From assembly GCA_050942995.1 (NCBI GenBank), contig JBMNOI010000001.1, positions 776 through 64,775 of the forward strand: a stretch of 64,000 bases of DNA, in the 5' to 3' direction. Below the pieces are notes generated by a model. It did not search any database and was not told where the DNA came from. It was given only the letters and a program-made list of their open reading frames with translations. The stretch comes from Anaerolineae bacterium. GTDB taxonomy: Bacteria; Chloroflexota; Anaerolineae; UBA1429. The translations under genes were made by a program, and so were the position numbers. How positions within the stretch are numbered: the first letter of the stretch is position 1; each line of letters starts with the position of its first letter. Below are positions 116 to 50,433 of the stretch, in pieces.

Positions 116-799
116 ATGAACAGATCGGATGATCGGATGCGCATCGGCGTCATCGGCACGGGACATATGGGCAGCACGCTGGCCGAGCTATGGGCCAGAG
201 CGGGGCACGATCTGCTGCTGGGATCGCGCGAGCCGCAGCAGGCGCGCAATATCGTGGAACAGATCGCCGCTCGCGGCGGTCCCCGCATGCGATCCGGTTC
301 TTATGCCGACGCGGGCGCTCATGGCGATGTGATATTGCTGGCCACTCCCTTTTTTGCCGCCGCCGAGGCCGTCGTGGCCGCCGGAGATCTGCGCGGCAAG
401 ATCCTCATCGACTGCACCAACCCCATCGCCGAAGGCGGCGAGATGCTCTCCGTGGGCCGCACCATCTCGGCGGCCGAACAGATCGCGAGCTGGGCACAGG
501 GCGCCCGCGTGGTCAAGGCGCTCAACGCGATGGGCTTCGAGACGCTGCCCCAACCGCGCTTTGGCGACCAGACGGCCTGCACCTTTGTGTGCGGCAACGA
601 CCATGAGGCCCGCGCCATCGTCATGCGGCTGGCCGAAGACATCGGTCTGGATGCCATCGATGCCGGCCCGTTGACCGAAGCGCGCACTCTGGAGCCGCTG
701 GCTCTGCTGTGGATCCACCTGAGCCGCCGCCTGCCCCAAGGGCGGGGCATTGCCTTTGCTCTGCTGCGGCGAGAGATGCCCTCCGGCACAGAGCGATAA
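116..799 (+). CDS. NADP oxidoreductase, coenzyme F420-dependent family (NpdG/ProC-like Rossmann protein)
   Basis: ORF 95..799. N-terminal dinucleotide-binding motif RIGVIGTGHMGSTLAELWARAGHDLLLGSR. AAGGAGG RBS at about 103-109 followed by GTGATG, so start placed at ATG 116. Confidence 0.7.
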   Translation: MNRSDDRMRIGVIGTGHMGSTLAELWARAGHDLLLGSREPQQARNIVEQIAARGGPRMRSGSYADAGAHGDVILLATPFFAAAEAVVAAGDLRGKILIDCTNPIAEGGEMLSVGRTISAAEQIASWAQGARVVKALNAMGFETLPQPRFGDQTACTFVCGNDHEARAIVMRLAEDIGLDAIDAGPLTEARTLEPLALLWIHLSRRLPQGRGIAFALLRREMPSGTER

Positions 800-819
800 G
801 TCGCGTTCGAAAACCGGAT

Positions 820-862
820 GTTTATATGGTTGTGGAGGCTACACCTCCACAACCATATAAAC
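820..862. repeat. Palindromic repeat element copy A (perfect 19-nt arms, 5-nt centre)
   Basis: GTTTATATGGTTGTGGAGG-ctaca-CCTCCACAACCATATAAAC between convergent genes. Shares the core ATAT(G/T)GTTGTGGAGG with copy B at 48974-49014. Confidence 0.8.
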
Positions 863-934
863 AAACACAATCTTTAGGCTCACCCGGAATGTCCGATATA
901 TGGCCTCCCGGGGTCATGTGGAGCCGCTCGTTCA

Positions 935-1399
935 TCAAACACGCTCGGGTGCCGCACGCAAATGGTGCACCGTAAGGCTCTGAGCAACCGGCATGGTGTT
1001 CAGCCGCGCCACGATCAGCCGCCGGTGGCAGCGCTCCGGGTCGGCCTCGAAGCAGAGCAGACAACAGGTCTCACGGGTAACATCATCGGCCAGCTCGTCC
1101 ATCGCATCGGGGACGCTGTCCAGATGCTCGTTATAGACCTGTGCAACCCACTCTGCATCGGCGCCGGCCCGCTGGCGTTCACGAACCCAGCGAGGAGTGC
1201 CCAGGATTCGGCGATTATCGTAGGCGATGCCGGCCGCCTCGAGGCTCTCGCTCAGGCGCCGTTTGGAAAAGCCGGGCTTGTGGCTGATCGGCGCCTCACG
1301 CACGTCGATGACGCGCTGCACACCATTCTCACGCAACAGATCGATCATGTCGTCGATCGTGATCCCCTGATAGCCCACTGTATATAAAACGTGTGTCAT
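935..1399 (-). CDS. DUF488 family protein
   Basis: ORF 935..1516(-). MTHVLYTVGY...VIDVR...LLCFEADPERCHRR pattern typical of DUF488. Start moved to the internal Met (aa 40 of the track ORF). Confidence 0.65.
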   Translation of the reverse strand: MTHVLYTVGYQGITIDDMIDLLRENGVQRVIDVREAPISHKPGFSKRRLSESLEAAGIAYDNRRILGTPRWVRERQRAGADAEWVAQVYNEHLDSVPDAMDELADDVTRETCCLLCFEADPERCHRRLIVARLNTMPVAQSLTVHHLRAAPERV

Positions 1400-10940: not shown

Positions 10941-11150
10941 CTAAACTCCTCAACCGGCAGGCCCCCATCTGCCCAAAGTACCCGCCGAACCACGCACTCG
11001 ATCTTGCCATTATGGTAACACGTTCCGCCTCACGATGCTATCCTCAGCGGGAGGTTGCGCGGCATGGCCCGATCAGCCCGGGCTCTTTCCTTTGGCGCGC
11101 TGTATGCGATTCGACCGCGCGGATACATGAAAACCTGCCTCGAAAAATGG

Positions 11151-11179
11151 TTGACATATCAGAGGATTCATGATACTAT
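11151..11179 (+). promoter_or_regulatory. Sigma70-like promoter P1 (TTGACA-17-TACTAT)
   Basis: TTGACAtatcagaggattcatgaTACTAT with exact 17-nt spacer. Drives structured RNA copy 1. Confidence 0.6.
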
Positions 11180-11186
11180 GTTAGTG

Positions 11187-11486
11187 TAGAGTCTCGAGGG
11201 GTTAACGTTACGCCAGAGTACCTGTTCGGCAGGACTAGGAAGACAAGTGGGGATCTATCGGGAGATCGGTAGAAAACCATGAGTCAGTGAAAAGATAGTG
11301 GCACCACCACTGTCGGGAAGCTGGCAAGCGACTCGTCCGAGGGGAAACCCGAGGATGAAAGCGAGTCAACCGAAACGAACGAGTGGGTGCGACGAAGGTG
11401 TAATGAAGGTCACTTGAGACTCTACATCTCTCTTATTGGTGTACCGACTGTCGTATCCGGAGCGAGCCGCTGTGCACGGCTCGCTC
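11187..11486 (+). ncRNA. Structured RNA element copy 1 (riboswitch-like; cobalamin-like core, unconfirmed)
   Basis: ~200-nt core is ~95% identical to copy 2. Closing helix TGTAGAGTCTCGAG / CTTGAGACTCTACA. Motifs GGGAGATCGGTAGAAAACC and CCACTGTCGGGAAG. Ends in an intrinsic terminator. Confidence 0.5.
11449..11486 (+). terminator. Intrinsic terminator T1
   Basis: GGAGCGAGCCG-ctgtgca-CGGCTCGCTCC followed by CTTTTTAT. Confidence 0.7.
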
Positions 11487-11653
11487 CCTTTTTATACCTC
11501 CGTAACAGATAACCCCCTTCTAAAGATCTCCGCCGCAATTGGCACTGGCCACCTTCGGGAGGTGATTTGTACAGCCTCGGCCGAACTCGGCGCATTATGA
11601 ACATTATCTTTATAAATTCATCCGATAATCTATGAAATTGGCCTCAAAAGGGG

Positions 11654-11682
11654 TTGACATATCGGGGCCATTATGTTATCAT
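11654..11682 (+). promoter_or_regulatory. Sigma70-like promoter P2 (TTGACA-17-TATCAT)
   Basis: TTGACAtatcggggccattatgtTATCAT, 17-nt spacer. Drives structured RNA copy 2. Confidence 0.6.
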
Positions 11683-11689
11683 ACGGTTG

Positions 11690-12005
11690 CAGGGTCTTGA
11701 GAGATTGACGTCGCACTGGAGCGCCTGTTCGGTAGGACTAGGAAGACAAGTGGGGATCTATCGGGAGATCGGTAGAAAACCATGAGTCAGTGAAAAGATG
11801 GTGGCACCACCACTGTCGGGAAGCTGGCAAGCAAGTAGTCCGAGGGGAAACCCGAGGGTGAAAGTGAGTCAACCGAAACGAACGAGTAGGTGCGATGAAG
11901 GTGTGATGGAGGTCACTTGAGGCCCTGCGTTTTTATCGATAGCGTATCGATATGTAGTTCAGAGGGCGGGCCGCGATCGCTGATCGTGGCCCGCCCCTTT
12001 TTTTG
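11690..12005 (+). ncRNA. Structured RNA element copy 2 (riboswitch-like leader of the EEP/NYN/GNAT operon)
   Basis: Same conserved core as copy 1. Closing helix GCAGGGTCTTGAG / CTTGAGGCCCTGC has a different sequence but stays complementary, i.e. covariation. Followed by terminator T2, then the gene at 12236. Confidence 0.5.
11964..12004 (+). terminator. Intrinsic terminator T2
   Basis: GGGCGGGCC-gcgatcgctgatcgt-GGCCCGCCC followed by CTTTTTTTG. Confidence 0.75.
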
Positions 12006-15222: not shown

Positions 15223-15390
15223 ACGTTGTGGACAACCGGTCGATCAAAGCCACTGCATGAAAGGGCCGCTTGAGGTAGATGTCGCCTCAAGCGGCCCTTT
15301 TGTGTCTCGTGTCGATCGAGCCGTTCCATATTCGGCCTGTCGAGCCCGGCCGGGAATCTCCCATCGGCGCATGAGGTGGCATCATCGGGC

Positions 15391-16215
15391 TCAACGCCCC
15401 GCGGTCACGACCTCATGCAGCGCATCCAGTCGGCGGATCTCCTCGGCGCTCAATTCGAGATCCAGCGCGTCCAGATTCTCGCGCATATGCCCCTCATCTG
15501 TGGACTGGACAATGGTGATGACGTGGGGTTTGCTGATGAGCCAGGCCAGGGCCACCTGATGGGGCGTGGCGCTATAGCCTCTGGCGATACGCGCCGCCTC
15601 TTCCAGCGCAACGCCGTCGAGACGTTTGACGGGCGAATAGGCGGTCAGCAACACATCGTGCTGCTGGCAGTAGGTCAGCACGCCGTTCTCCTCAGGCTCG
15701 CGCACCATCAGGTTATAATGCACCTGATTCGTCGCCAGGATGCTCTCGGTCAGGTGAAACGCATGATCCATCTGCTCCCGATTAAAGTTGCTCACCCCGA
15801 TGTAGCGCGTCTTGCCCTGCTCGACCAGCTCGTTCAGCGCGCGGAACGTCTCATCCAGAGGGACCGTCGGATCAGGCGCGTGAATCAGGTAGAGATCGAG
15901 ATAATCGGTGCCCAGGCGCTCCAGGCTGCCCTCGATCGCCTCCAGCACCTGAGCATAGCGCAGGTGGTTGCGGCCCACCTTGCTGGTGATGAACAGCTTT
16001 TTCCGATCGAAGCCTTTGATGGCCTCCCCGATAACCCGCTCGCTCTCACCGCCCCCGTACACCTCGGCCGTATCGATGTGGGTGTATCCCAGCTCGATCG
16101 CCTTGCGGATAGCGGCCACATCCTGGGCTTTTTCGGATAGATCGGCGCCAAAGCGCGATGTGCCCAACCCCAGCACCGGTACCGGATAGCCGTCATGGAA
16201 TTTCTTGAACCGCAT
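15391..16215 (-). CDS. Aldo/keto reductase
   Basis: Track ORF 15391..16347(-). Start at internal MRFKKFHDGYPVPVLGLGT with AAGGAGGTG RBS upstream. AIELGYTHIDTAEVYGGGESERVIGEAI AKR signature. Confidence 0.8.
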   Translation of the reverse strand: MRFKKFHDGYPVPVLGLGTSRFGADLSEKAQDVAAIRKAIELGYTHIDTAEVYGGGESERVIGEAIKGFDRKKLFITSKVGRNHLRYAQVLEAIEGSLERLGTDYLDLYLIHAPDPTVPLDETFRALNELVEQGKTRYIGVSNFNREQMDHAFHLTESILATNQVHYNLMVREPEENGVLTYCQQHDVLLTAYSPVKRLDGVALEEAARIARGYSATPHQVALAWLISKPHVITIVQSTDEGHMRENLDALDLELSAEEIRRLDALHEVVTAGR

Positions 16216-16650
16216 AGGGTCCACCTCCTTATGCTCCTCATCCGCGCCGAGATGCTCCGTCACGATCGCATCATCGGCGTATTGTTGATAATATTCATCA
16301 TATTTATTATATACGCGCGGCGATGCCAGATCAAGGGGCAGCGGCAAGAGGACAGGGCGGCATCATGGTCCGGTATTACCCACGGAAGGTAGTTGTTGGC
16401 GATAGCGCCCATAGCGCAACGGCCTCAGCAGCCGCTGCCCCTTGACCTCTCCAACAGTTGTGCCTTATACTCAAATGAGGAGGTGTTTGAGAAACCGTCC
16501 TGTGTATGCCACACAATCGATCCGGGGCCGGCTGACAGGCTCTGGAGGTGGCATCTTGTATTTCGCAGAGGGATGCCCCTCTTGGGGACATGCCACCAGA
16601 TCGGTCGATCGATTGTTTATCCGTCGGGTTATTGATTGACAGGAGTTGTG

Positions 16651-16866
16651 ATGATGAAACTGAGCGCACGGAACGTTCTAAAGGGAACCGTTAAGCGAGT
16701 CGAGCACGGTATGGTAAACAGTGAAGTCGTCATCGAGCTGCCGGGCGGACAAGAAGTGGTGTCGATGATCACCAAGCATTCGGCAGAAGGACTGGGCCTC
16801 CGGGAAGGGAAGGAGGTGTATGCGGTGATCAAGGCATCGAACGTGATGGTGTCAGTAGAAGATTAA
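16651..16866 (+). CDS. mop: Molybdopterin-binding (Mop/TOBE domain) protein
   Basis: MMKLSARNVLKGTVKRVEHG...EVYAVIKASNVMV, ~70 aa, typical single TOBE domain. Confidence 0.75.
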   Translation: MMKLSARNVLKGTVKRVEHGMVNSEVVIELPGGQEVVSMITKHSAEGLGLREGKEVYAVIKASNVMVSVED

Positions 16867-16919
16867 AATGGTGAGGCGTACTCCGCAGCAGGAGCGCCGC
16901 CAGCGCAAACACCATAATC

Positions 16920-16951
16920 AAAGGGGCGTCAGGCATGCCTGACGCCCCTTT
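16920..16951. terminator. Perfect palindromic hairpin, probable bidirectional terminator
   Basis: AAAGGGGCGTCAGGCATGCCTGACGCCCCTTT with A/T runs on both sides. Lies at the GC-rich to AT-rich boundary. Confidence 0.7.
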
Positions 16952-17280
16952 CCTTTCGAACGCCAGGAAGAGCCACGCCGGAGATCGCCCGGACGCCGGA
17001 TCGTTCGCCCTATGGGGGCAGAAGGCTGACGAAGGGCGGATGCAGCGCTACGCATTGCAAGAGGGCAGCGCGCTCTATGTCCTGCTGATCTTGAGAGCTG
17101 GCTGCCCATTACATCGGGAAAAATGAGATACAGCCACCATCGGTGGAGGAATAGGAATGAATAAATGACAATTATAATCAATTAGACAAGAAAAACAAAA
17201 AAACGGGCGGGACAAAACGGGGGGTGGCCTTTACACGGCGAGATCTACCGAGTATAATGAGGTTCGAGGGGAGTGAAACT

Positions 17281-18471
17281 ATGCAGAATAATGGTAACGG
17301 GCATGTCCTTGCCACAGGTTCCAAAACGTACCGTCGCTATAAGCTGATTGATCTCTTCGCAGGCGCAGGAGGATTTACGCTCGGATTCACGCCAGAATTC
17401 GGTCACCGCTTTGATATTGTATGGGCAAATGACATTAATCAATTTGCAGCAGACACATATAATGCTAATTTCGGCAATCACTGTGTTGTCGGAGACATCG
17501 TCGATCTCCTTAATGATCCTAAAGTCGTAATCCCGACTGCGGATGTGGTCATTGGCGGTCCTCCTTGTCAGGGCTTTAGCCTTCTCAACAAAAACCGCAA
17601 GGGAGATCCACGAAAGCAGCTATGGCGCCCGTTTTTGACGGTAGTTGAGCGATCAGAGGCCAAGCTATTTGTTATGGAGAATGTTCCTCAACTACTAGGA
17701 TCTAAAGAATATGATGAAATAAAAAAAGTAGCGGAAACCTTGGGTTTCAGGCTTACCGCAGCTAAGCTTTGCGCAGCAGATTACGGAGTCCCGCAATTAC
17801 GATTCCGAGCATTTGTGATCGGTTGTCGGTTTGCCGATCCTTCAGATTTCTTTCCCCCTAAACAGACTCACTATGATCCTGACAAAGAACCAGGACTATT
17901 TGATATAGTAGAAAGAAACAGCACGGGTAGAGTTCATACTTGGCGTACGGTTCGAGACGCGATTGGGGATCTTCCGCCACCTGAAGGCACGGAGATTCGA
18001 GATGAAGACCCTCCTCTGGATCTTCACTTTGGTCGATCTCCAACTGAGTTAAGCATGAAGCGATATCGAGCGATTCCCGAAGAGGGAATGAACCGGTTTG
18101 ATTTACAGCGTTTGGCTCCGGAGTTAACACCCAAGTGCTGGATTCGGAAAAAAACAGGAGGAACCGATCTATTCGGACGGCTATGGCGGGATAAACCCTC
18201 TGTCACGATCAGGACAGAATTCTTCAAGCCCGAAAAGGGACGTTACCTACATCCGGAACAGCACAGACCGATCACGCATCGCGAGGCGGCACGGCTCCAA
18301 TCTTTCCCAGACACCTTCCGGTTTCGGGGTAGTAAGATCGAGATAGCACGCCAGATCGGTAATGCTGTGCCTCCCATGTTGGCAGCACGAGTAGCGGATG
18401 CGGTCGTCGAGATTTTGGCTTTGGCAGAGGAGAATGAACCGATCAGACAGATGGAGATGCAACATCGCTAG
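17281..18471 (+). CDS. DNA (cytosine-5)-methyltransferase (Type II R-M methylase)
   Basis: Motif I DLFAGAGGFTLGF, motif IV GGPPCQGFS, ENV, QLRFRAFVIG, QIGNAVPP. AT-rich codon usage unlike the surrounding genes. Start at MQNNGNG after GAGGGGAG RBS. Confidence 0.9.
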   Translation: MQNNGNGHVLATGSKTYRRYKLIDLFAGAGGFTLGFTPEFGHRFDIVWANDINQFAADTYNANFGNHCVVGDIVDLLNDPKVVIPTADVVIGGPPCQGFSLLNKNRKGDPRKQLWRPFLTVVERSEAKLFVMENVPQLLGSKEYDEIKKVAETLGFRLTAAKLCAADYGVPQLRFRAFVIGCRFADPSDFFPPKQTHYDPDKEPGLFDIVERNSTGRVHTWRTVRDAIGDLPPPEGTEIRDEDPPLDLHFGRSPTELSMKRYRAIPEEGMNRFDLQRLAPELTPKCWIRKKTGGTDLFGRLWRDKPSVTIRTEFFKPEKGRYLHPEQHRPITHREAARLQSFPDTFRFRGSKIEIARQIGNAVPPMLAARVADAVVEILALAEENEPIRQMEMQHR

Positions 18472-18494
18472 GCTAGATATGACCGGATCGTTGA

Positions 18495-18522
18495 CCCCGC
18501 CGGAAACTTGGCGGGGTTTTTT
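18495..18522 (+). terminator. Intrinsic terminator after the methyltransferase
   Basis: CCCCGCC-ggaaactt-GGCGGGG followed by TTTTTT. Confidence 0.7.
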
Positions 18523-18548
18523 GTTACTTTTCTGAAACATGATGTGCA

Positions 18549-18770
18549 ATGATCTATCATGATTTAAAGCATGTTTTGGGACACAACGTGCAAAAGCTGC
18601 GCAAGTCGCTGGATATGACTCAAAAGGAACTTGCCGAACGCACGGGACTAAATCGTTCATATATAGCAGGGATAGAACGTGGAATGCGAAATGTGCGACT
18701 AAGTACCATAGCAGTGCTCGCGGCAGCCATGAATGTTGATCCAGAAGAATTGCTTAAGAAAGATAATTAA
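18549..18770 (+). CDS. XRE-family HTH protein, likely R-M controller (C) protein
   Basis: LGHNVQKLRKSLDMTQKELAERTGLNRSYIAGIERGMRNVRLSTIAVLAAAMNVDPEEL is a canonical HTH_3 domain. Sits between the methylase and the nuclease genes. Confidence 0.65.
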   Translation: MIYHDLKHVLGHNVQKLRKSLDMTQKELAERTGLNRSYIAGIERGMRNVRLSTIAVLAAAMNVDPEELLKKDN

Positions 18771-18781
18771 AGCACATTATT

Positions 18782-19666
18782 ATGGGCCCACAACGAGAAA
18801 AAATGAACATGAATAATATCTTATCCGAGATGCACGGCATCATGGACCGATTAAGAAAAGCCGAAAGTGAAGGCACAACACGGCGAGAACAGGTTCGGTT
18901 GATTGTGCAGCTCCGGCATCTCGTTGACCTCTGTGGAAAAGCGCTCTACCCGGAGTATAAATCCGCTCGTGCAAGGCTACTGGCATATATGCAAGAACAT
19001 GTGGGACAGCCTATTCACTCTACCGAACTCGCGGCTGTTGCCGGCATCAGCGAGTATGCCAGACGAATTAGGGAGTTACGGGTGGAGTTCGGTTATGATA
19101 TATTGACGATGGAGGATGATCCGAATCTCGGCGCGAATGAATATCTGCTAACTAGCATCGAACCCGACCAAGCTCGGGCAAGCCGCTGGGAATTGGCAAA
19201 CACGATCAGAAACCGGAAAGATTTGAATGCCTCTGAGCGAATTCTAGAGTTCCTCAAAGCAAATGTCGGATGCCCCGTCACAAGCGATGAGCTTCAGTAC
19301 GTTGCAAAAATCAAAGAGTTTGGGAGACGCATCCGTGACTTGAGAACAGAAGGGGGCTGGATCATCCACAGTGGCGTCTTAGGACGGCCTGATCTCAGGC
19401 CAACGCAATACGTGCTCGAATCATTGGAGCAAACAATGCCCCATGAACGGAGCATACCAGAGTCAGTTGCCAAAAAAGTATACGAAAGGGATAACTATCA
19501 ATGTGTTGAATGCGGATGGTCTAAAGCGAGTGCCGATCCGACTGATTCTCCCCGTTATCTACAGCTACATCATCGCGTTCCTCATGCAGACAAAGGCCCA
19601 AACACCGTAGATAATCTTGAAGTTCGATGTAATATATGCCATAAACAGGCACACACTACTCAATGA
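18782..19666 (+). CDS. HNH nuclease, probable Type II restriction endonuclease, with tandem N-terminal DNA-binding repeats
   Basis: C-terminal HNH/zinc motif CVECGW...LQLHHRVPHADKGPNTVDNLEVRCNICH. Internal repeats ...ISEYARRIRELRVEFGYDI and ...IKEFGRRIRDLRTEGGWIIHS. AT-rich like the methylase. Confidence 0.6.
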   Translation: MGPQREKMNMNNILSEMHGIMDRLRKAESEGTTRREQVRLIVQLRHLVDLCGKALYPEYKSARARLLAYMQEHVGQPIHSTELAAVAGISEYARRIRELRVEFGYDILTMEDDPNLGANEYLLTSIEPDQARASRWELANTIRNRKDLNASERILEFLKANVGCPVTSDELQYVAKIKEFGRRIRDLRTEGGWIIHSGVLGRPDLRPTQYVLESLEQTMPHERSIPESVAKKVYERDNYQCVECGWSKASADPTDSPRYLQLHHRVPHADKGPNTVDNLEVRCNICHKQAHTTQ

Positions 19667-19727
19667 CCAAGTATCACTTGTGAACAACGTAGATACGGCT
19701 GTAATTGTATTAAGCGCTTATCTATCT

Positions 19728-20336
19728 ATGCAACAAATGCGGTCATTCCCTTGGCGGGAAGAGAACGATCCATTCCACATCCTTATTGCGGAAATGATGC
19801 TTATCCGAACGCGTGCCGACCTAGTAGTTCCGGTTTATTTGCAATTCATCCGACAGTGGCCGCGGCCGGATGATCTGGTATGTGCTGCTGATGAGCAAAT
19901 TGCACAAACGTTAGTACCGTTAGGTCTGCCCCAGCGTATTCCCTTTTTCAAGCAAGCAGCGAAACACATCATCGAGAACCATGCGGGAGTGGTGCCTTCA
20001 AAGCGCAAAGACCTTGAGAAGATTCCCGGCGTGGGTCGATATGTTGCTGAGGCAGTCTTGGCATTTGCATTCAATCAACCCATTGTTCCCGCAGATGTGA
20101 ATGTACTGCGGTGGATATCGCGCATAACGGGGCTCGAGATGATCAGTAGCAGCAAAGGTTCGAAAGAGATACGATTACTGCTACCTAGGCTCGCCCCGTT
20201 GGGCGGACGGCAAGCGTACAAGTTCCTCGATTTTTTGCGTGAAATATGTCGTCCGAGAAAACCTGCATGTGATGAGTGTTGGATTCAGATGTTGTGTCAT
20301 TACGGTCGAAAAGCATTACCAGATTCGACCGCATAA
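19728..20336 (+). CDS. Endonuclease III family HhH-GPD DNA glycosylase with [4Fe-4S] loop (Mig-like mismatch glycosylase candidate)
   Basis: FHILIAEMMLIRTRADLVVPVYLQF. HhH motif LEKIPGVGRYVAEAVLAFAF...VDVNVLRWISRI. Cluster loop C-x6-C-x2-C-x5-C (CRPRKPACDECWIQMLC). Start placed at MQQMRSFPWREE. Confidence 0.75.
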   Translation: MQQMRSFPWREENDPFHILIAEMMLIRTRADLVVPVYLQFIRQWPRPDDLVCAADEQIAQTLVPLGLPQRIPFFKQAAKHIIENHAGVVPSKRKDLEKIPGVGRYVAEAVLAFAFNQPIVPADVNVLRWISRITGLEMISSSKGSKEIRLLLPRLAPLGGRQAYKFLDFLREICRPRKPACDECWIQMLCHYGRKALPDSTA

Positions 20337-20341
20337 ATCGA

Positions 20342-20370
20342 TTGACATCCACCCTCAGATATGCTATAGT
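20342..20370 (+). promoter_or_regulatory. Sigma70-like promoter (TTGACA-17-TATAGT) for the trpB2 leader
   Basis: TTGACAtccaccctcagatatgcTATAGT with 17-nt spacer. Confidence 0.55.
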
Positions 20371-20389
20371 AGCGACAATCGAACAGTGA

Positions 20390-20611
20390 AAGATGTAGAT
20401 CGGGAAGAGTAGCTGTCAAAGCGGGATTCAGAGAGCCGGGGTAAGGTGAGAGCCCGGTATCAGCGCAGACAACGAATGGGCCCGGGAGTCGCGCGGCCGA
20501 ACGCGCAGAGCGCTACTAGGCCGCGACGGAGTCGCCACCGTTATCAGGGCAGAGGGTATCGGTTGACCTCGTTGTGACAGAGGATCAACCCGTACCTGCA
20601 AGAGTGAGGCT
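20390..20611 (+). promoter_or_regulatory. Structured 5' leader of trpB2, T-box-like (tentative)
   Basis: ~250-nt untranslated leader. AGAGAG box, loop with UGG. Degenerate T-box-like GGCTGGCCCGCA overlaps the 5' side of the terminator. Confidence 0.35.
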
Positions 20612-20645
20612 GGCCCGCACATTAAAATCCGCCATCACGGCGGGA
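20612..20645 (+). terminator. Intrinsic terminator/attenuator in the trpB2 leader
   Basis: AAAATCCGCC-atcac-GGCGGGATTTTTTATT immediately upstream of the trpB2 RBS. Confidence 0.7.
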
Positions 20646-20821
20646 TTTTTTATTATATATGTCGGGTCGGGCTAAGAAGGGTGGCACCACGGGAGCAAAG
20701 CTCTCGTCCCTTGGGGACGAGGGCTTTTTTTATTGGCCGACACATCCCGGCGGGCCGAGAGCCATCGAATCGTAATGTTCCGGGTGTTCGGGGTGATCCG
20801 CGCAAACGAGGAGGGAAAAAG

Positions 20822-43655: not shown

Positions 43656-43881
43656 ACAACCGAACAACGCTCGGCCGTAGACAGCAGGTGCGTATTGACG
43701 CTTAATCATCAGCCTGCCGAGGCAGAGATCACGGGTTGCCCCTAAATAGCCGGAGAATCGAGCGAGGCGACCCGGCTTGAGGTAGATATTCCTAATTCAG
43801 GAACATGCCCCAATGAGATCTTTGCGTCGGTATGGCGCAAAGATCTTTTTTTTCATCTTACCGGAAGGAGGTGAGACGCTC
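43656..43881 (+). promoter_or_regulatory. rplJ-rplL leader region (L10 autoregulatory leader candidate)
   Basis: ~225-nt untranslated region between rplA and rplJ, the position of the L10 leader in other bacteria. Structure not verified. Confidence 0.35.
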
Positions 43882-47922: not shown

Positions 47923-48933
47923 ATGAGCATGACGTCGCGAGAGCGGGTCACACGGACGCTGCGCTTTGAGGGAGTGGATCGGCCGGCGCGTAACATCTGG
48001 ACGCTGCCGGCGGCCTATATCGGGCGCGATGCCGAGCTGGCCACGCTGCTGGCCGGCTATCCCGACGACTTTGGAGATGGTGGCTATCGCGATCCGGTAG
48101 ACGAGACGCCGCTCTATTTCCCGGGCGAGTGGACCGACCCCTGGGGCAGCCGCTGGCAAAATATCCGGCCGGGAATGATCGGTGAGGTCAAGTATCCGGC
48201 CATCGACGAGTGGAGCCGTCTGGCCCACTGGCGACCGCCCTACCATCTGCTGGGACGCGGCTTTCAGGATGTCAATCGCACCTGCGCCGAAAATGACCTG
48301 TTCAACTATATCGGCACGCCGCGCCCGTTCGAGCGCCTGCAGTTCGTGCGCGGCCCCGAAAACGCCTACATGGACCTGGCCTGGGGCGTCAAAGAGGTCT
48401 TTACCCTGCTGGAGATGATCCACGACTATTATCTGCGCCACCTGGAGTATGTGGTGCGCACCGATGTGGACGCAATCATGTTCATGGACGACTGGGGCTC
48501 ACGAGATTCGTTGCTCATCTCGCCGGACATGTGGGTGGAATACTTTAAACCGCTCTATCGGGATTATGTCGAGATGGCTCACAGCCACGGCAAATTTGCG
48601 CTGATGCACTCGGACGGCTATATCATGGACCTTTACGAGCATCTCATCGAGATCGGCGTGGATGCCATCAACTCGCAGCTTTTCACCATGCCCATCGAAG
48701 AGATCGGCCGTCGCTTCAAAGGGCGCATCACCTTCTGGGGCGAGATGGATCGTCAGTATATCCTGCCCTTTGGCACGCCCGATGAGGTCAGGGCAGCGGT
48801 AGAGCGGGTGCGCGCCGTCCTGTGGGATGATCGTGGCGGCGTCATCGGCCAGGCCGAGTTCAACGCCGGCCAGCCGCTGGAGAATATCCGCGCCTTTTTA
48901 GAGGCGTGGTGGGGACCGCCGGAAGAGGTGTAA
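47923..48933 (+). CDS. Uroporphyrinogen decarboxylase (URO-D)-like / MtaA-like family protein
   Basis: Track ORF 47431..48933. Start at MSMTSRERV after GGGGGAGGA RBS. URO-D-like TIM barrel pattern. Confidence 0.65.
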   Translation: MSMTSRERVTRTLRFEGVDRPARNIWTLPAAYIGRDAELATLLAGYPDDFGDGGYRDPVDETPLYFPGEWTDPWGSRWQNIRPGMIGEVKYPAIDEWSRLAHWRPPYHLLGRGFQDVNRTCAENDLFNYIGTPRPFERLQFVRGPENAYMDLAWGVKEVFTLLEMIHDYYLRHLEYVVRTDVDAIMFMDDWGSRDSLLISPDMWVEYFKPLYRDYVEMAHSHGKFALMHSDGYIMDLYEHLIEIGVDAINSQLFTMPIEEIGRRFKGRITFWGEMDRQYILPFGTPDEVRAAVERVRAVLWDDRGGVIGQAEFNAGQPLENIRAFLEAWWGPPEEV

Positions 48934-48973
48934 ATCGGCGCCGGGAATACCGGCTGAGCCCTGAACGGTGGAT

Positions 48974-49014
48974 TTCATATTGTTGTGGAGGCGACGCCTC
49001 CACAACAATATGAA
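48974..49014. repeat. Palindromic repeat element copy B
   Basis: TTCATATTGTTGTGGAGGCG-a-CGCCTCCACAACAATATGAA between convergent genes. Same core as copy A at 820-862. Confidence 0.8.
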
Positions 49015-49029
49015 GAATTCGAACACGCT

Positions 49030-50433
49030 TTAGCTGCGTCGTTTCGGCAGATGTAATGCCCGACCTCGCGCCGCCAGCGCCGCCTCGGCGATAGCCTCGC
49101 CCAGTGTGGGGTGAGGATGCACGGTGCGCCCGATCTCGTCCAGCGTGGCCTCCAACCCCACGGCCAGGGTGCCCTCCAGCACCAGGTCGCTGGCGTGGGG
49201 GCCCAGCACATGCAGCCCCAGCACAGCCCCATAGCGCGATTCGGATACCACCTTGACAAAGCCGTTGGTATCGCCGTTGGCGATGGCCTTGCCCAAATTG
49301 GCCATGGAAAAGACGCCCACCTCGACCTCGTGCCCCGCCGCCCGTGCCTGTTCCTCCGTCAACCCCACCCCCGCCGCCTCGGGCAGGGTAAAGATGCAAT
49401 TGGGGATGGCGTCGTAATCCATGGCGGCGACGTGCCCCAGAGCGTTCTCTACCGCCACGATGCCCTGATGCGAGGCCACATGGGCCAGCATGGGGCCGTC
49501 GGCGGCCACATCACCGATGGCGAACACGCCGGGCACCACCGTCCGCATCTGACGATCCACCTGAATGCCCTTGCGATCGGGCTTGATGCCCAGCACCTCC
49601 AGCCCCAGCCCTTCGATGTTGGGCGCCCGCCCGATGGCCGAGAGCACGAGAGCGCATTCCACCGTCCGCTCACCCTCGGCGGTAGCGACGATGACGCGAC
49701 AATGATCGGCATCCTGTTCCACATGTTGCACGGCACCGCCCGTTATCACCTCGATGCCTTGCTGCTCGAACGTCCAGGCCAGCCCCTCGCCGATGGATTC
49801 GTCCATGAGCGGCGCCAGACGCGGCAGCATCTCGACCACCGTAACCTTGACCCCCACCGTGTGGAACAGACTGGCGAATTCCAGCCCGATGGCCCCGCCG
49901 CCGATGACGCACAGGCTCTCGGGCAGCTCCTCCAGCGAAAGGGCGCCGGTGGAGTCGATCACCCGGGGGCCGTCCAGACCGGGGATGGGCGCCTGCATCG
50001 GGCGCGAGCCGGTGGCGATGATGACGTTTTCGGCGGCAAGGGTCTCCTGCCCGTCCGCGCGCCGTATGGCCAGCGTATCGGGGCGCAAAAAAGACGCCTC
50101 CCCCTCGATGATCTCGACGCCGACGCGATCGAGCAACAGCCGCACACCGTTCACCATCTGCCGGGTCACGGCGGCTTTGCGCTCCAAAGCAACCGACCAG
50201 TCAAAGCGCGGCGCATCGACCATGACACCGAACTGGGCCGCGTCGCGAGTCAGCGCCAGCACCTCAGCCGAGCGCAGCAACGCCTTGGTGGGTATGCAGC
50301 CCACGTTCAGGCATACGCCGCCCACATATTCCCTCTCGACGCACACCACCCGCGCGCCCAGTTGCGCGGCGCGCAGGGCGGCCACATATCCACCCGGCCC
50401 CAGGCCGATGATGGCGATATCCGCACGTGTCAT
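49030..50433 (-). CDS. lpdA: Dihydrolipoyl dehydrogenase
   Basis: ADIAIIGLGPGGYVAALRAAQLG...GGVCLNVGCIPTKALL redox-active disulfide. His-Pro-x-x-Glu dimer-interface motif. 467 aa. Confidence 0.9.
   Translation of the reverse strand: MTRADIAIIGLGPGGYVAALRAAQLGARVVCVEREYVGGVCLNVGCIPTKALLRSAEVLALTRDAAQFGVMVDAPRFDWSVALERKAAVTRQMVNGVRLLLDRVGVEIIEGEASFLRPDTLAIRRADGQETLAAENVIIATGSRPMQAPIPGLDGPRVIDSTGALSLEELPESLCVIGGGAIGLEFASLFHTVGVKVTVVEMLPRLAPLMDESIGEGLAWTFEQQGIEVITGGAVQHVEQDADHCRVIVATAEGERTVECALVLSAIGRAPNIEGLGLEVLGIKPDRKGIQVDRQMRTVVPGVFAIGDVAADGPMLAHVASHQGIVAVENALGHVAAMDYDAIPNCIFTLPEAAGVGLTEEQARAAGHEVEVGVFSMANLGKAIANGDTNGFVKVVSESRYGAVLGLHVLGPHASDLVLEGTLAVGLEATLDEIGRTVHPHPTLGEAIAEAALAARGRALHLPKRRS

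What the first reader, a model, noticed from the sequence alone, without database searches (positions are those of the whole stretch)
820..862. Dispersed palindromic repeat family at convergent gene ends (second copy at 48974-49014)
Two ~41-43-bp perfect palindromes share the core ATAT(G/T)GTTGTGGAGGC...GCCTCCACAAC(C/A)ATAT. One lies between the convergent pair 116-799(+) / 935-1399(-). The other lies between the convergent pair 47923-48933(+) / lpdA(-). The spurious minus-strand ORFs through both end in the same peptide ...GGVASTTI, which confirms the relatedness. Two copies in 64 kb implies a genome-wide REP/MITE-like family, probably acting as bidirectional terminators or insulators.
Basis: seen in the sequence. 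Interest (0 to 1): 0.55.

Follow-up and report, generated by a model that had tools for sequence, protein, structure and literature searches.

The report
Two-copy palindromic repeat after genes
Two related 41-45-base perfect palindromes, each the centre of a roughly 100-base repeat, lie between convergent genes in an uncultured Anaerolineae bacterium; they look like a low-copy inserted repeat that folds into a strong RNA hairpin, which is an ordinary kind of bacterial feature.

Summary
Positions 819-863 and 48974-49014 are perfect palindromes with 20-bp arms, the two longest in the window. They align without gaps at 35 of 41 positions. Both stem differences are compensated on the opposite arm. 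Each lies between convergent stop codons.

- Similarity extends beyond the palindrome, but only when copy 1 (+) is compared with copy 2 (-). This gives an oriented unit of about 100 nt that starts at the TAA of the co-oriented gene.
- A syntenic relative has the same gene pair with only 22 nt between the stop codons and no hairpin. The unit is therefore a lineage-specific, dispensable insertion, or was lost in the relative.
- No third copy exists in 80.7 kb of this species or about 106 kb from six relatives. Public genome, metagenome, virus, plasmid and phage scans found no multi-copy family of this element. The source genome itself could not be scanned.
- Neither copy has a U-tract on either strand, while the organism uses canonical hairpin-plus-T-tract terminators elsewhere.
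- It lacks the terminal GTAG/CGTC tag of REPs, and terminal inverted repeats or target duplications of MITEs. No transposase gene was found in the ORFs and called genes checked across the window.

Best reading: a low-copy, REP-like-in-spirit inserted repeat whose RNA hairpin (about -33 kcal/mol) probably acts as a 3'-end barrier or stabiliser. Low interest.

The parts
819..863 (.). Copy 1 palindrome: arms 819-838 and 844-863 (20 bp, perfect), loop CTACA at 839-843
   Evidence: RNA fold gives a centroid hairpin of -32.6 (+) and -35.6 (-) kcal/mol, z about -7.
48974..49014 (.). Copy 2 palindrome: arms 48974-48992 and 48996-49014 (19 bp plus a possible closing G-C), loop GAC
   Evidence: RNA fold has z about -6.6 on both strands.
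797..895 (+). Copy 1 extended repeat unit (approximate bounds): TAA stop, GTCGCGTTCGAA (800-811), palindrome, 13-nt spacer, GGCTCACCCGGAATGTCCG (877-895)
   Evidence: Alignment of copy 1 (+) with copy 2 (-). Flank similarity tests.
48942..49032 (-). Copy 2 extended repeat unit (approximate bounds), read on the minus strand: TAA stop of lpdA (49032-49030), AGCGTGTTCGAA (49029-49018), palindrome, 12-nt spacer, GGCTCAGCCGGTATTCCCG (48960-48942). It fills nearly all of the 96-nt spacer.
116..799 (+). F420-dependent NADP reductase-like gene. Its TAA stop abuts the start of copy 1 and it has the same orientation as the unit.
   Evidence: Pfam PF03807/PF03446. The C-terminus aligns to its end with the orthologue of the relative.
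935..1399 (-). DUF488 gene, convergent partner at copy 1
   Evidence: orthologue alignment
47923..48933 (+). Uroporphyrinogen decarboxylase-family (methyltransferase-like) gene, convergent partner at copy 2
49030..50433 (-). Dihydrolipoyl dehydrogenase-like gene. Its TAA stop abuts the start of copy 2 and it has the same orientation as the unit.

Best explanation
A short, oriented, non-coding repeat of about 95-100 nt has been copied into at least two 3' intergenic spacers of this Anaerolineae genome. Its centre is a perfect 41-45-bp palindrome.

The repeat is not needed by the neighbouring genes. Because both spacers lie between convergent genes, the palindrome is transcribed into the 3' untranslated ends of both mRNAs. 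There it folds into a 19-20-bp hairpin of about -33 kcal/mol.

The likely consequence is inferred, not shown. The hairpin would block 3'-to-5' exonucleases and would partly hinder read-through transcription. It would not act as a classical hairpin-plus-U-tract terminator.

Strict arm-to-arm symmetry is kept at the nucleic-acid level, as hairpin selection or arm-to-arm correction in the palindrome. A protein reading two half-sites would not produce this pattern.

How the unit is copied is unknown. The candidates are a hairpin-recognising single-strand transposase acting in trans, or ectopic recombination.
For: Common origin:
- The copies share 35/41 identity without gaps.
- Both stem differences are compensated.

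The unit is larger than the palindrome and is oriented:
- For copy 1 (+) against copy 2 (-), the right flanks score 11 at matching offsets of 13 and 15 nt. This gives p about 0.002 against random 50-mers from the window.
- None of 576 flank comparisons from unrelated loci carrying the same core reaches that score.
- The left flanks score 9 (p about 0.05), starting at a TAA stop codon in both copies.
- The same-orientation comparisons give p = 0.14 and 0.60.

The unit is dispensable and lineage-specific:
- Syntenic relative L107 (77% identity in the reductase, same neighbouring genes) has 22 nt between the two stop codons and no hairpin.
- The protein C-termini are collinear to the end.
- No copy is found in about 106 kb from six relatives.

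Strong hairpin on both strands: z is -6.5 to -7.4.

Not a canonical terminator:
- Downstream tails are AACACAAUCUUU and UCCGGUUUUCG for copy 1, and GAAUUCGAAC and AUCCACCGUU for copy 2.
- Neither copy is flagged by the terminator scan.
- Other convergent junctions carry A-tract/GC-stem/T-tract hairpins of unrelated sequence.

No known family or source:
- No Rfam family matches.
- No plasmid or phage match.
- No transposase appears among the Pfam hits for genes in and around the window.
Against: - Only two copies are known, so 'repeat family' rests on n = 2.
- The direction of change (insertion here versus deletion in the relative) is not polarised by an outgroup.
- There are no terminal inverted repeats and no consistent target-site duplication. 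Copy 1 has CGATA at 794-798 and 894-898, but copy 2 has nothing comparable.
- No candidate enzyme was found, so mobility is inferred only from the paralogy plus the empty site.
- All contigs of this species are at least 99.6% identical, so within-species conservation says nothing about selection.
- The RNA-level role is inferred from position and folding only. No transcript data were available.
Confidence: 0.5

Rival explanations
1. A selected bidirectional terminator or insulator module. The hairpin stops RNA polymerase coming from both convergent genes and prevents antisense read-through. The shared sequence reflects reuse of a working module.
For: - Both copies sit exactly between convergent stop codons.
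- The stem is perfect Watson-Crick, so it is equally strong on both strands.
- The stem bases are AT-rich (UUUAUAU / AUAUAAA), loosely like the A-tract/U-tract arrangement of bidirectional terminators.
- No other strong structure lies in these spacers.
Against: - There is no run of U after the stem in any of the four transcript directions, and the scan does not flag either copy.
- The same genome has clear canonical terminators, for example at 11964-11996, 11459-11487, 18493-18518, 53161-53133 and 15260-15300.
- The orthologous convergent gene pair in L107 has a 22-nt spacer and no hairpin.
- In the possible homologue L073, the hairpin is followed 37 nt later by a separate canonical terminator.
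- A pure terminator would not need conserved, non-palindromic flanks.
Confidence: 0.25
2. A one-off duplication or gene-conversion tract with no mobility and no function. There are only these two copies in the genome, and palindrome symmetry is kept by intrastrand template switching.
For: - There is no third copy in 80.7 kb.
- No genome in the 185,579-species collection shows a multi-copy family of this element.
- A word search of 5.8 billion predicted proteins found no ORF reading through such a palindrome. This is weak evidence, because the words span the variable loop.
- Loop inversion in an unrelated Anaerolineae hairpin (L062 versus L069) shows that such palindromes do undergo arm-mediated rearrangement.
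Against: - The copies have diverged to about 85% in the palindrome and about 70% in the flanks, yet both keep 20/20 pairing. This is unexpected for neutral decay.
- Both copies start at the stop codon of a co-oriented gene, which hints at a placement rule.
- The source genome could not be scanned, so the absence of further copies is unproven.
Confidence: 0.17
3. A double-stranded DNA site bound by a dimeric protein, such as a recombinase, nucleoid protein or repressor, that reads the invariant half-site GTTGTGGAGG.
For: The inner 10 bp of each arm are identical in both copies, while the outer stem and loop vary. The half-site occurs nowhere else in the window.
Against: - Both sites lie between convergent 3' ends, where there is nothing to regulate.
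- Changes in the two arms are exactly compensated, which dimer binding does not require.
- A 41-45-bp perfect palindrome is far longer than usual operators.
- No contig shows inversion between the two oppositely oriented copies.
- With two recently related copies, an invariant core carries no weight.
Confidence: 0.06

Closest known systems
REP elements (repetitive extragenic palindromes; GTAG- or CGTC-tagged stem-loop families, mobilised by RAYT tyrosine transposases; Di Nocera et al. 2013, PMC3733652)
   Same: Both are short extragenic palindromes repeated at different loci, placed at gene 3' ends. Both are transcribed into hairpins and are thought to affect termination or mRNA stability. REP families vary in presence between lineages.
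   Different: - This element has no GTAG or CGTC at either end. Those tetranucleotides occur only inside the loops (CTAC in copy 1, GACG in copy 2).
- The stems are perfect and longer (20 bp). REPs are 20-40 bp in total and imperfect.
- The palindrome is embedded in conserved, asymmetric flanks.
- Only two copies were seen, and no RAYT gene was found in the region examined.
MITEs (miniature inverted-repeat transposable elements)
   Same: The size is similar (about 100 nt), the element is non-coding and intergenic, and an orthologous 'empty site' exists in a relative.
   Different: The inverted repeat is central and contiguous rather than terminal. There is no consistent target-site duplication and no related insertion sequence.
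Bidirectional intrinsic terminators, including the paired DNA-uptake-sequence terminators of Neisseria and Haemophilus (Kingsford et al. 2007, PMC1852404)
   Same: Both are hairpins between convergent genes that fold on both strands. In the uptake-sequence case, a shared sequence recurs in the stems of many terminators.
   Different: There is no U-tract. The stem 9-mer is not over-represented as single copies. The conserved flanks have no counterpart in terminators.
Repeated stem-loop sequence families in prokaryotic genomes (Petrillo et al. 2006, PMC1590033)
   Same: This is the generic class that the element falls into: intergenic stem-loops that share sequence.
   Different: That class is defined by many copies per genome, which is not shown here.

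Membership tests
REP (RAYT-associated) | GTAG or CGTC tetranucleotide at one end of the palindrome | tested here: not met
   The ends read TGTTTATAT.../...ATATAAACA and TTCATATT.../...AATATGAA. CTAC and GACG occur only in the loops. The criterion is from PMC3733652.
REP (RAYT-associated) | High copy number (tens to hundreds per genome) | tested here: inconclusive
   There are two copies in 80.7 kb of the species. The public scans did not return the source genome.
REP (RAYT-associated) | Associated IS200/IS605-type tyrosine transposase (RAYT) gene | tested here: inconclusive
   No transposase domain appears among the ORFs and called genes checked in the window and about 17 kb of flanks.
REP (RAYT-associated) | Short extragenic palindrome able to form a hairpin | tested here: met
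MITE | Terminal inverted repeats bounding the element | tested here: not met
   The unit ends (GTCGCGTTCGAA... and ...GGCTCACCCGGAATGTCCG) are not inverted copies of each other. The inverted repeat is central.
MITE | Target-site duplication of fixed length | tested here: not met
   Copy 1 has CGATA on both sides (794-798 and 894-898). Copy 2 has no flanking direct repeat.
MITE | Presence/absence polymorphism at orthologous sites | tested here: met
   L107 has a 22-nt spacer against 135 nt here, with collinear protein ends. The direction of change is not polarised.
Intrinsic (Rho-independent) terminator | Run of U immediately after a GC-rich stem | tested here: not met
   The tails were read. 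Neither copy is listed by the scan.
Intrinsic (Rho-independent) terminator | Stable hairpin just downstream of a stop codon | tested here: met
   The hairpins lie 15-71 nt from the four stop codons.
Intrinsic (Rho-independent) terminator | Transcripts end at the site | not testable with these tools
   No transcript 3'-end data were available.
Uptake-sequence-type terminator | Stem motif strongly over-represented genome-wide, mostly as single copies | tested here: not met
   The exact TTGTGGAGG occurs only in the four palindrome arms in 64 kb.
Any Rfam RNA family | Covariance-model match at the gathering score | tested here: not met
   Only chance matches to microRNA-precursor hairpins, far below threshold.

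The most novel reading that the evidence does not exclude
The unit could be the first glimpse of an untagged REP-like superfamily in Chloroflexota. It would be an oriented 3'-UTR insertion element of about 100 nt. Its sequence-conserved hairpin core (GTTGTGGAGGC-N3-GCCTCCACAAC) would be recognised by a dedicated protein and would be shared across lineages.

The hints are weak. A 63%-GC metagenome contig (L073) has the same 11+3+11 core, weakly similar flanks and the same position after a stop codon. Three of about 20 unrelated genome hits to the core are Chloroflexota.
Probability: 0.08. Interest if true: 0.5.

Novelty: new member of a known kind. Interest (0 to 1): 0.22.

Why it matters
If the unit proves to be multi-copy in the full genome, it would give Anaerolineae a first described small dispersed repeat. 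Anaerolineae is a poorly studied, mostly uncultured class that is abundant in anaerobic digesters. Such a repeat would also be a useful strain marker. It would offer a case of a palindromic element that lacks the GTAG/CGTC tag used to recognise REPs. As it stands, this is an ordinary two-copy hairpin repeat with no demonstrated function.

Tried and rejected
1. Exact-pattern scan of 185,579 representative genomes with GTTGTGGAGG-N1-9-CCTCCACAAC. It gave 47 loci, none from the source organism. Twenty-seven are an unrelated Bacteroidales hairpin with an 8-nt loop. The rest are scattered single hits, consistent with chance among the many hairpins in bacterial genomes.

2. The same scan of metagenome contigs gave 25 loci, with no source organism. 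The scan of viral contigs gave 0.

3. Walking out of the window with proteins encoded near its ends added 9 kb on the left and 7.6 kb on the right. No further copy appeared. Proteins encoded outside the window cannot be looked up, so walking stopped there.

4. A profile search (nhmmer) built from the two-copy alignment, run against the window and all loci, found only the known copies plus the pattern-selected hairpins.

5. A peptide-word search looked for spurious ORFs reading through family members among 5.8 billion proteins and found none. The method is insensitive because every 5-residue word spans the variable loop.

6. L073 as a true homologue: its flank similarity ranks 1st of 144 control flank sets, but only narrowly (31 against 30, 30 and 29). 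I treat it as a lead only.

7. Orthologous 3' ends of the URO-D gene in five relatives. Synteny on the lpdA side is not conserved, so no empty-site test was possible for copy 2.

8. Strain comparison: all contigs are at least 99.6% identical. The odd outer arm in L083 comes from a 2.8x-coverage assembly with 22 indels and was discounted.

9. dif, parS, attC and CRISPR-repeat readings were rejected from memory of their consensus sequences and from the two-copy convergent-end placement. I did not test them formally.

Full report
**Observation**

Reading the two sites directly confirms the finding.
- Copy 1 is TGTTTATATGGTTGTGGAGG-CTACA-CCTCCACAACCATATAAACA. Its arms are 819-838 and 844-863, with 20/20 pairs.
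- Copy 2 is TTCATATTGTTGTGGAGGC-GAC-GCCTCCACAACAATATGAA at 48974-49014.
- They are the two longest inverted repeats in the window. They are two of only five perfect hairpins with stems of at least 12 bp.
- The core pattern is expected 0.02 times by chance and occurs twice. The 9-mer TTGTGGAGG occurs nowhere else.
- Aligned without gaps over 41 nt, the copies are identical at 35 positions. Four differences form two symmetric, compensated stem pairs, and two lie in the loop.
- The shared ...CGGVASTTI ends of the spurious minus-strand ORFs are real.
- Both sites lie between convergent stop codons. Copy 1 sits in a 135-nt spacer between an F420-reductase-like gene and DUF488. Copy 2 sits in a 96-nt spacer between a URO-D family gene and an LpdA-like gene.
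- The palindromes recur in at least 18 independently assembled contigs from four sources, so they are not artefacts.

**Organism**

Exact-protein look-ups and source names place the window in an uncultured Anaerolineae (Chloroflexota) bacterium. It was assembled from several related metagenome samples, and NCBI MAG GCA_012841665.1 carries both loci. All contigs of the species are 99.6-100% identical to the window, so conservation among strains carries no information. Two variants were seen.
- One contig (L091) has a loop change that adds a closing C-G pair, making copy 1 more like copy 2.
- An aberrant outer arm in L083 comes from a 2.8x-coverage assembly with 22 indels and was discounted.

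**The repeat is larger than the palindrome and has an orientation**

When copy 1 (+) is aligned with copy 2 (-), similarity continues on both sides.
- On the left, both begin TAA-NNN-G(C/T)GTTCGAA, and the TAA is the stop codon of the co-oriented gene (the reductase, and lpdA).
- On the right, GGCTCA(C/G)CCGG(A/T)AT..CCG lies 13 and 15 nt beyond the palindrome.
- The right-flank score of 11 has p about 0.002 against random 50-mers of the window. None of 576 flank comparisons from unrelated loci with the same core reaches it.
- The left-flank score of 9 has p about 0.05.
- The same-orientation comparisons are unremarkable, at p = 0.14 and 0.60.

The unit is therefore about 95-100 nt (797-895 on the plus strand; 49032-48942 on the minus strand). 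In copy 2 it fills almost the whole spacer. The loops are more alike in the opposite relative orientation. This may reflect a loop flip of the kind seen in an unrelated Anaerolineae hairpin, where L062 and L069 have identical flanks and reverse-complemented loops.

**Dispensability**

A relative with 77% identity in the reductase (L107) keeps the same local gene order: bPH_2, the reductase, DUF488, then DUF2142/PMT_2. It has only 22 nt (GCGCGCGCGCGCCCCGCCCGGG) between the two convergent stop codons and no hairpin. The protein C-termini align to their ends.

The roughly 100 extra nucleotides here are therefore an insertion, or were lost in the relative. Because a paralogous copy exists 48 kb away, insertion is the simpler reading, but no outgroup polarises it. 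Downstream synteny at copy 2 is not conserved in any relative examined, so no comparable test was possible there.

**Copy number**

I could examine 80.7 kb of this species: the window plus 9 kb on the left and 7.6 kb on the right. It holds two copies. A half-site search allowing three mismatches found no degenerate third copy, nor did a profile of the whole unit. About 106 kb from six relatives holds none.

Exact-core scans gave the following.
- 185,579 representative genomes: 47 loci.
- The metagenome collection: 25 loci.
- Viral contigs: 0.

None of these loci comes from the source organism, and none carries the ATAT-flanked form. The hits are an unrelated Bacteroidales hairpin (27 loci) plus scattered singletons. 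So no sampled genome holds a multi-copy family of this element, but the source genome itself was evidently not scanned.

One metagenome contig (L073, 63% GC) has the same 11+3+11 core after a stop codon with weakly similar flanks. It ranks first of 144 controls, but only narrowly. There, a separate canonical terminator follows 37 nt downstream.

**Function**

As RNA, the palindromes fold into 19-20-bp hairpins on both strands, with centroid energies of -31.5 to -35.6 kcal/mol and z of -6.5 to -7.4. No U-tract follows the stem in any of the four transcript directions, and the terminator scan lists neither copy.

The same genome has textbook terminators, for example GGGCGGGCCGCGATC...CCC followed by CTTTTTTT at 11964-11996 and CCAAGGCCGAG...TTGG followed by TTTTT at 53161-53133. 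Two of the four other convergent junctions carry unique A-tract/GC-stem/T-tract hairpins, and the other two carry none or only weak structure.

Together with the hairpin-free orthologous junction in L107, this argues against a required bidirectional terminator. A role as a 3'-end barrier or mRNA stabiliser, or as a partial roadblock to polymerase, is the most reasonable inference, but it is untested.

The exact compensation of changes between the arms points to constraint or correction at the hairpin level. It does not fit recognition of two half-sites by a dimeric protein.

**Comparison with known kinds**

- No Rfam family matches.
- There is no similarity to plasmids or phages.
- REPs are defined by a terminal GTAG or CGTC tag, high copy number and association with RAYT transposases (PMC3733652). 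The tag is absent from the ends, copy number is unproven, and no transposase domain occurs among the Pfam hits for genes in and around the window.
- MITE criteria (terminal inverted repeats, target duplication) are not met.
- The uptake-sequence model fails because the stem motif is not over-represented.

The element works like a REP or a repeated stem-loop, but it is not a member of the tagged REP families.

**Verdict**

This is a real, related pair of perfect palindromes at the centre of an oriented, dispensable repeat of about 100 nt. Two copies are known. The 'genome-wide family' and 'bidirectional terminator' claims are not established, and the second is disfavoured. I class it as a new member of a known kind, of low interest unless a full-genome scan shows many copies or an associated enzyme.

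Noticed in passing
window 11143-11442 and 11646-11945: A 300-nt direct repeat at 83% identity (an inner stretch of about 200 nt is 94% identical), with 503-nt spacing. Each copy has a sigma-70-like promoter (11151-11179; 11654-11682) and a strong T-tract terminator (11459-11487; 11964-11996). There is no ORF above 44 aa within the repeat copies and no Rfam match. This looks like a tandem pair of unknown small-RNA genes.
   Followed up: partly
window 16000-20400: A low-GC island (0.49-0.52 against about 0.61 elsewhere). It carries a C5 cytosine DNA methylase (17224-18471), a winged-helix HNH endonuclease (18782-19666) and an HhH-GPD glycosylase (19617-20336). This is probably an acquired restriction-modification cassette. 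A perfect 32-bp palindrome lies at 16920-16951.
   Followed up: partly
L062:53-78, L069:1701-1726, L029:1671-1696: The same Anaerolineae hairpin locus occurs with identical flanks and stem, but the 6-nt loop is reverse-complemented (TAACA-type TAAACA against TGTTTA). This is a natural loop-inversion polymorphism of a palindrome.
   Followed up: no
L001, L005, L007, L012-L017, L019, L020, L023-L025, L030, L033, L034, L037-L041, L044, L045, L047: Twenty-seven gut or rumen Bacteroidales MAG loci share the hairpin GTTGTGGAGG-CCTCTCGA-CCTCCACAAC, and many also share a conserved tail TTGGGTTTGCAATCTATATTAGATT. By coincidence the 10-bp stem is the same as here. There is no Rfam hit on two of these loci. 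It is possibly the end of an undescribed conserved RNA.
   Followed up: partly
L103:4982-5004 and 19032-19054: L103 is one of the closest relatives found by URO-D identity (82%). It has its own two-copy palindrome, GCCGTCGGAT-N3-ATCCGACGGC. One copy lies between divergent genes and the other upstream of a gene, so this is a candidate operator.
   Followed up: no
L006:574-625, L076:10008-10060, L079:9640-9694: Deltaproteobacterial contigs carry tandem copies of a hairpin with the same GTTGTGGAGG stem.
   Followed up: no
window 839-843 and 48993-48997: The loop regions contain CTAC (reverse complement GTAG) in copy 1 and GACG (reverse complement CGTC) in copy 2. These are the two tetranucleotides that tag the REP superfamilies, but here they are in the loop rather than at an end. 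This is probably coincidence.
   Followed up: no
L106:993-1022: The only contig of a slightly diverged strain (98% protein identity) ends inside the copy 1 palindrome. This may be an assembly break at the palindrome.
   Followed up: no
window 20387-20714 and 43657-43860: A T-box leader lies upstream of a PALP-domain enzyme gene, and a ribosomal protein L10 leader is also present. Both reach their Rfam gathering scores.
   Followed up: no
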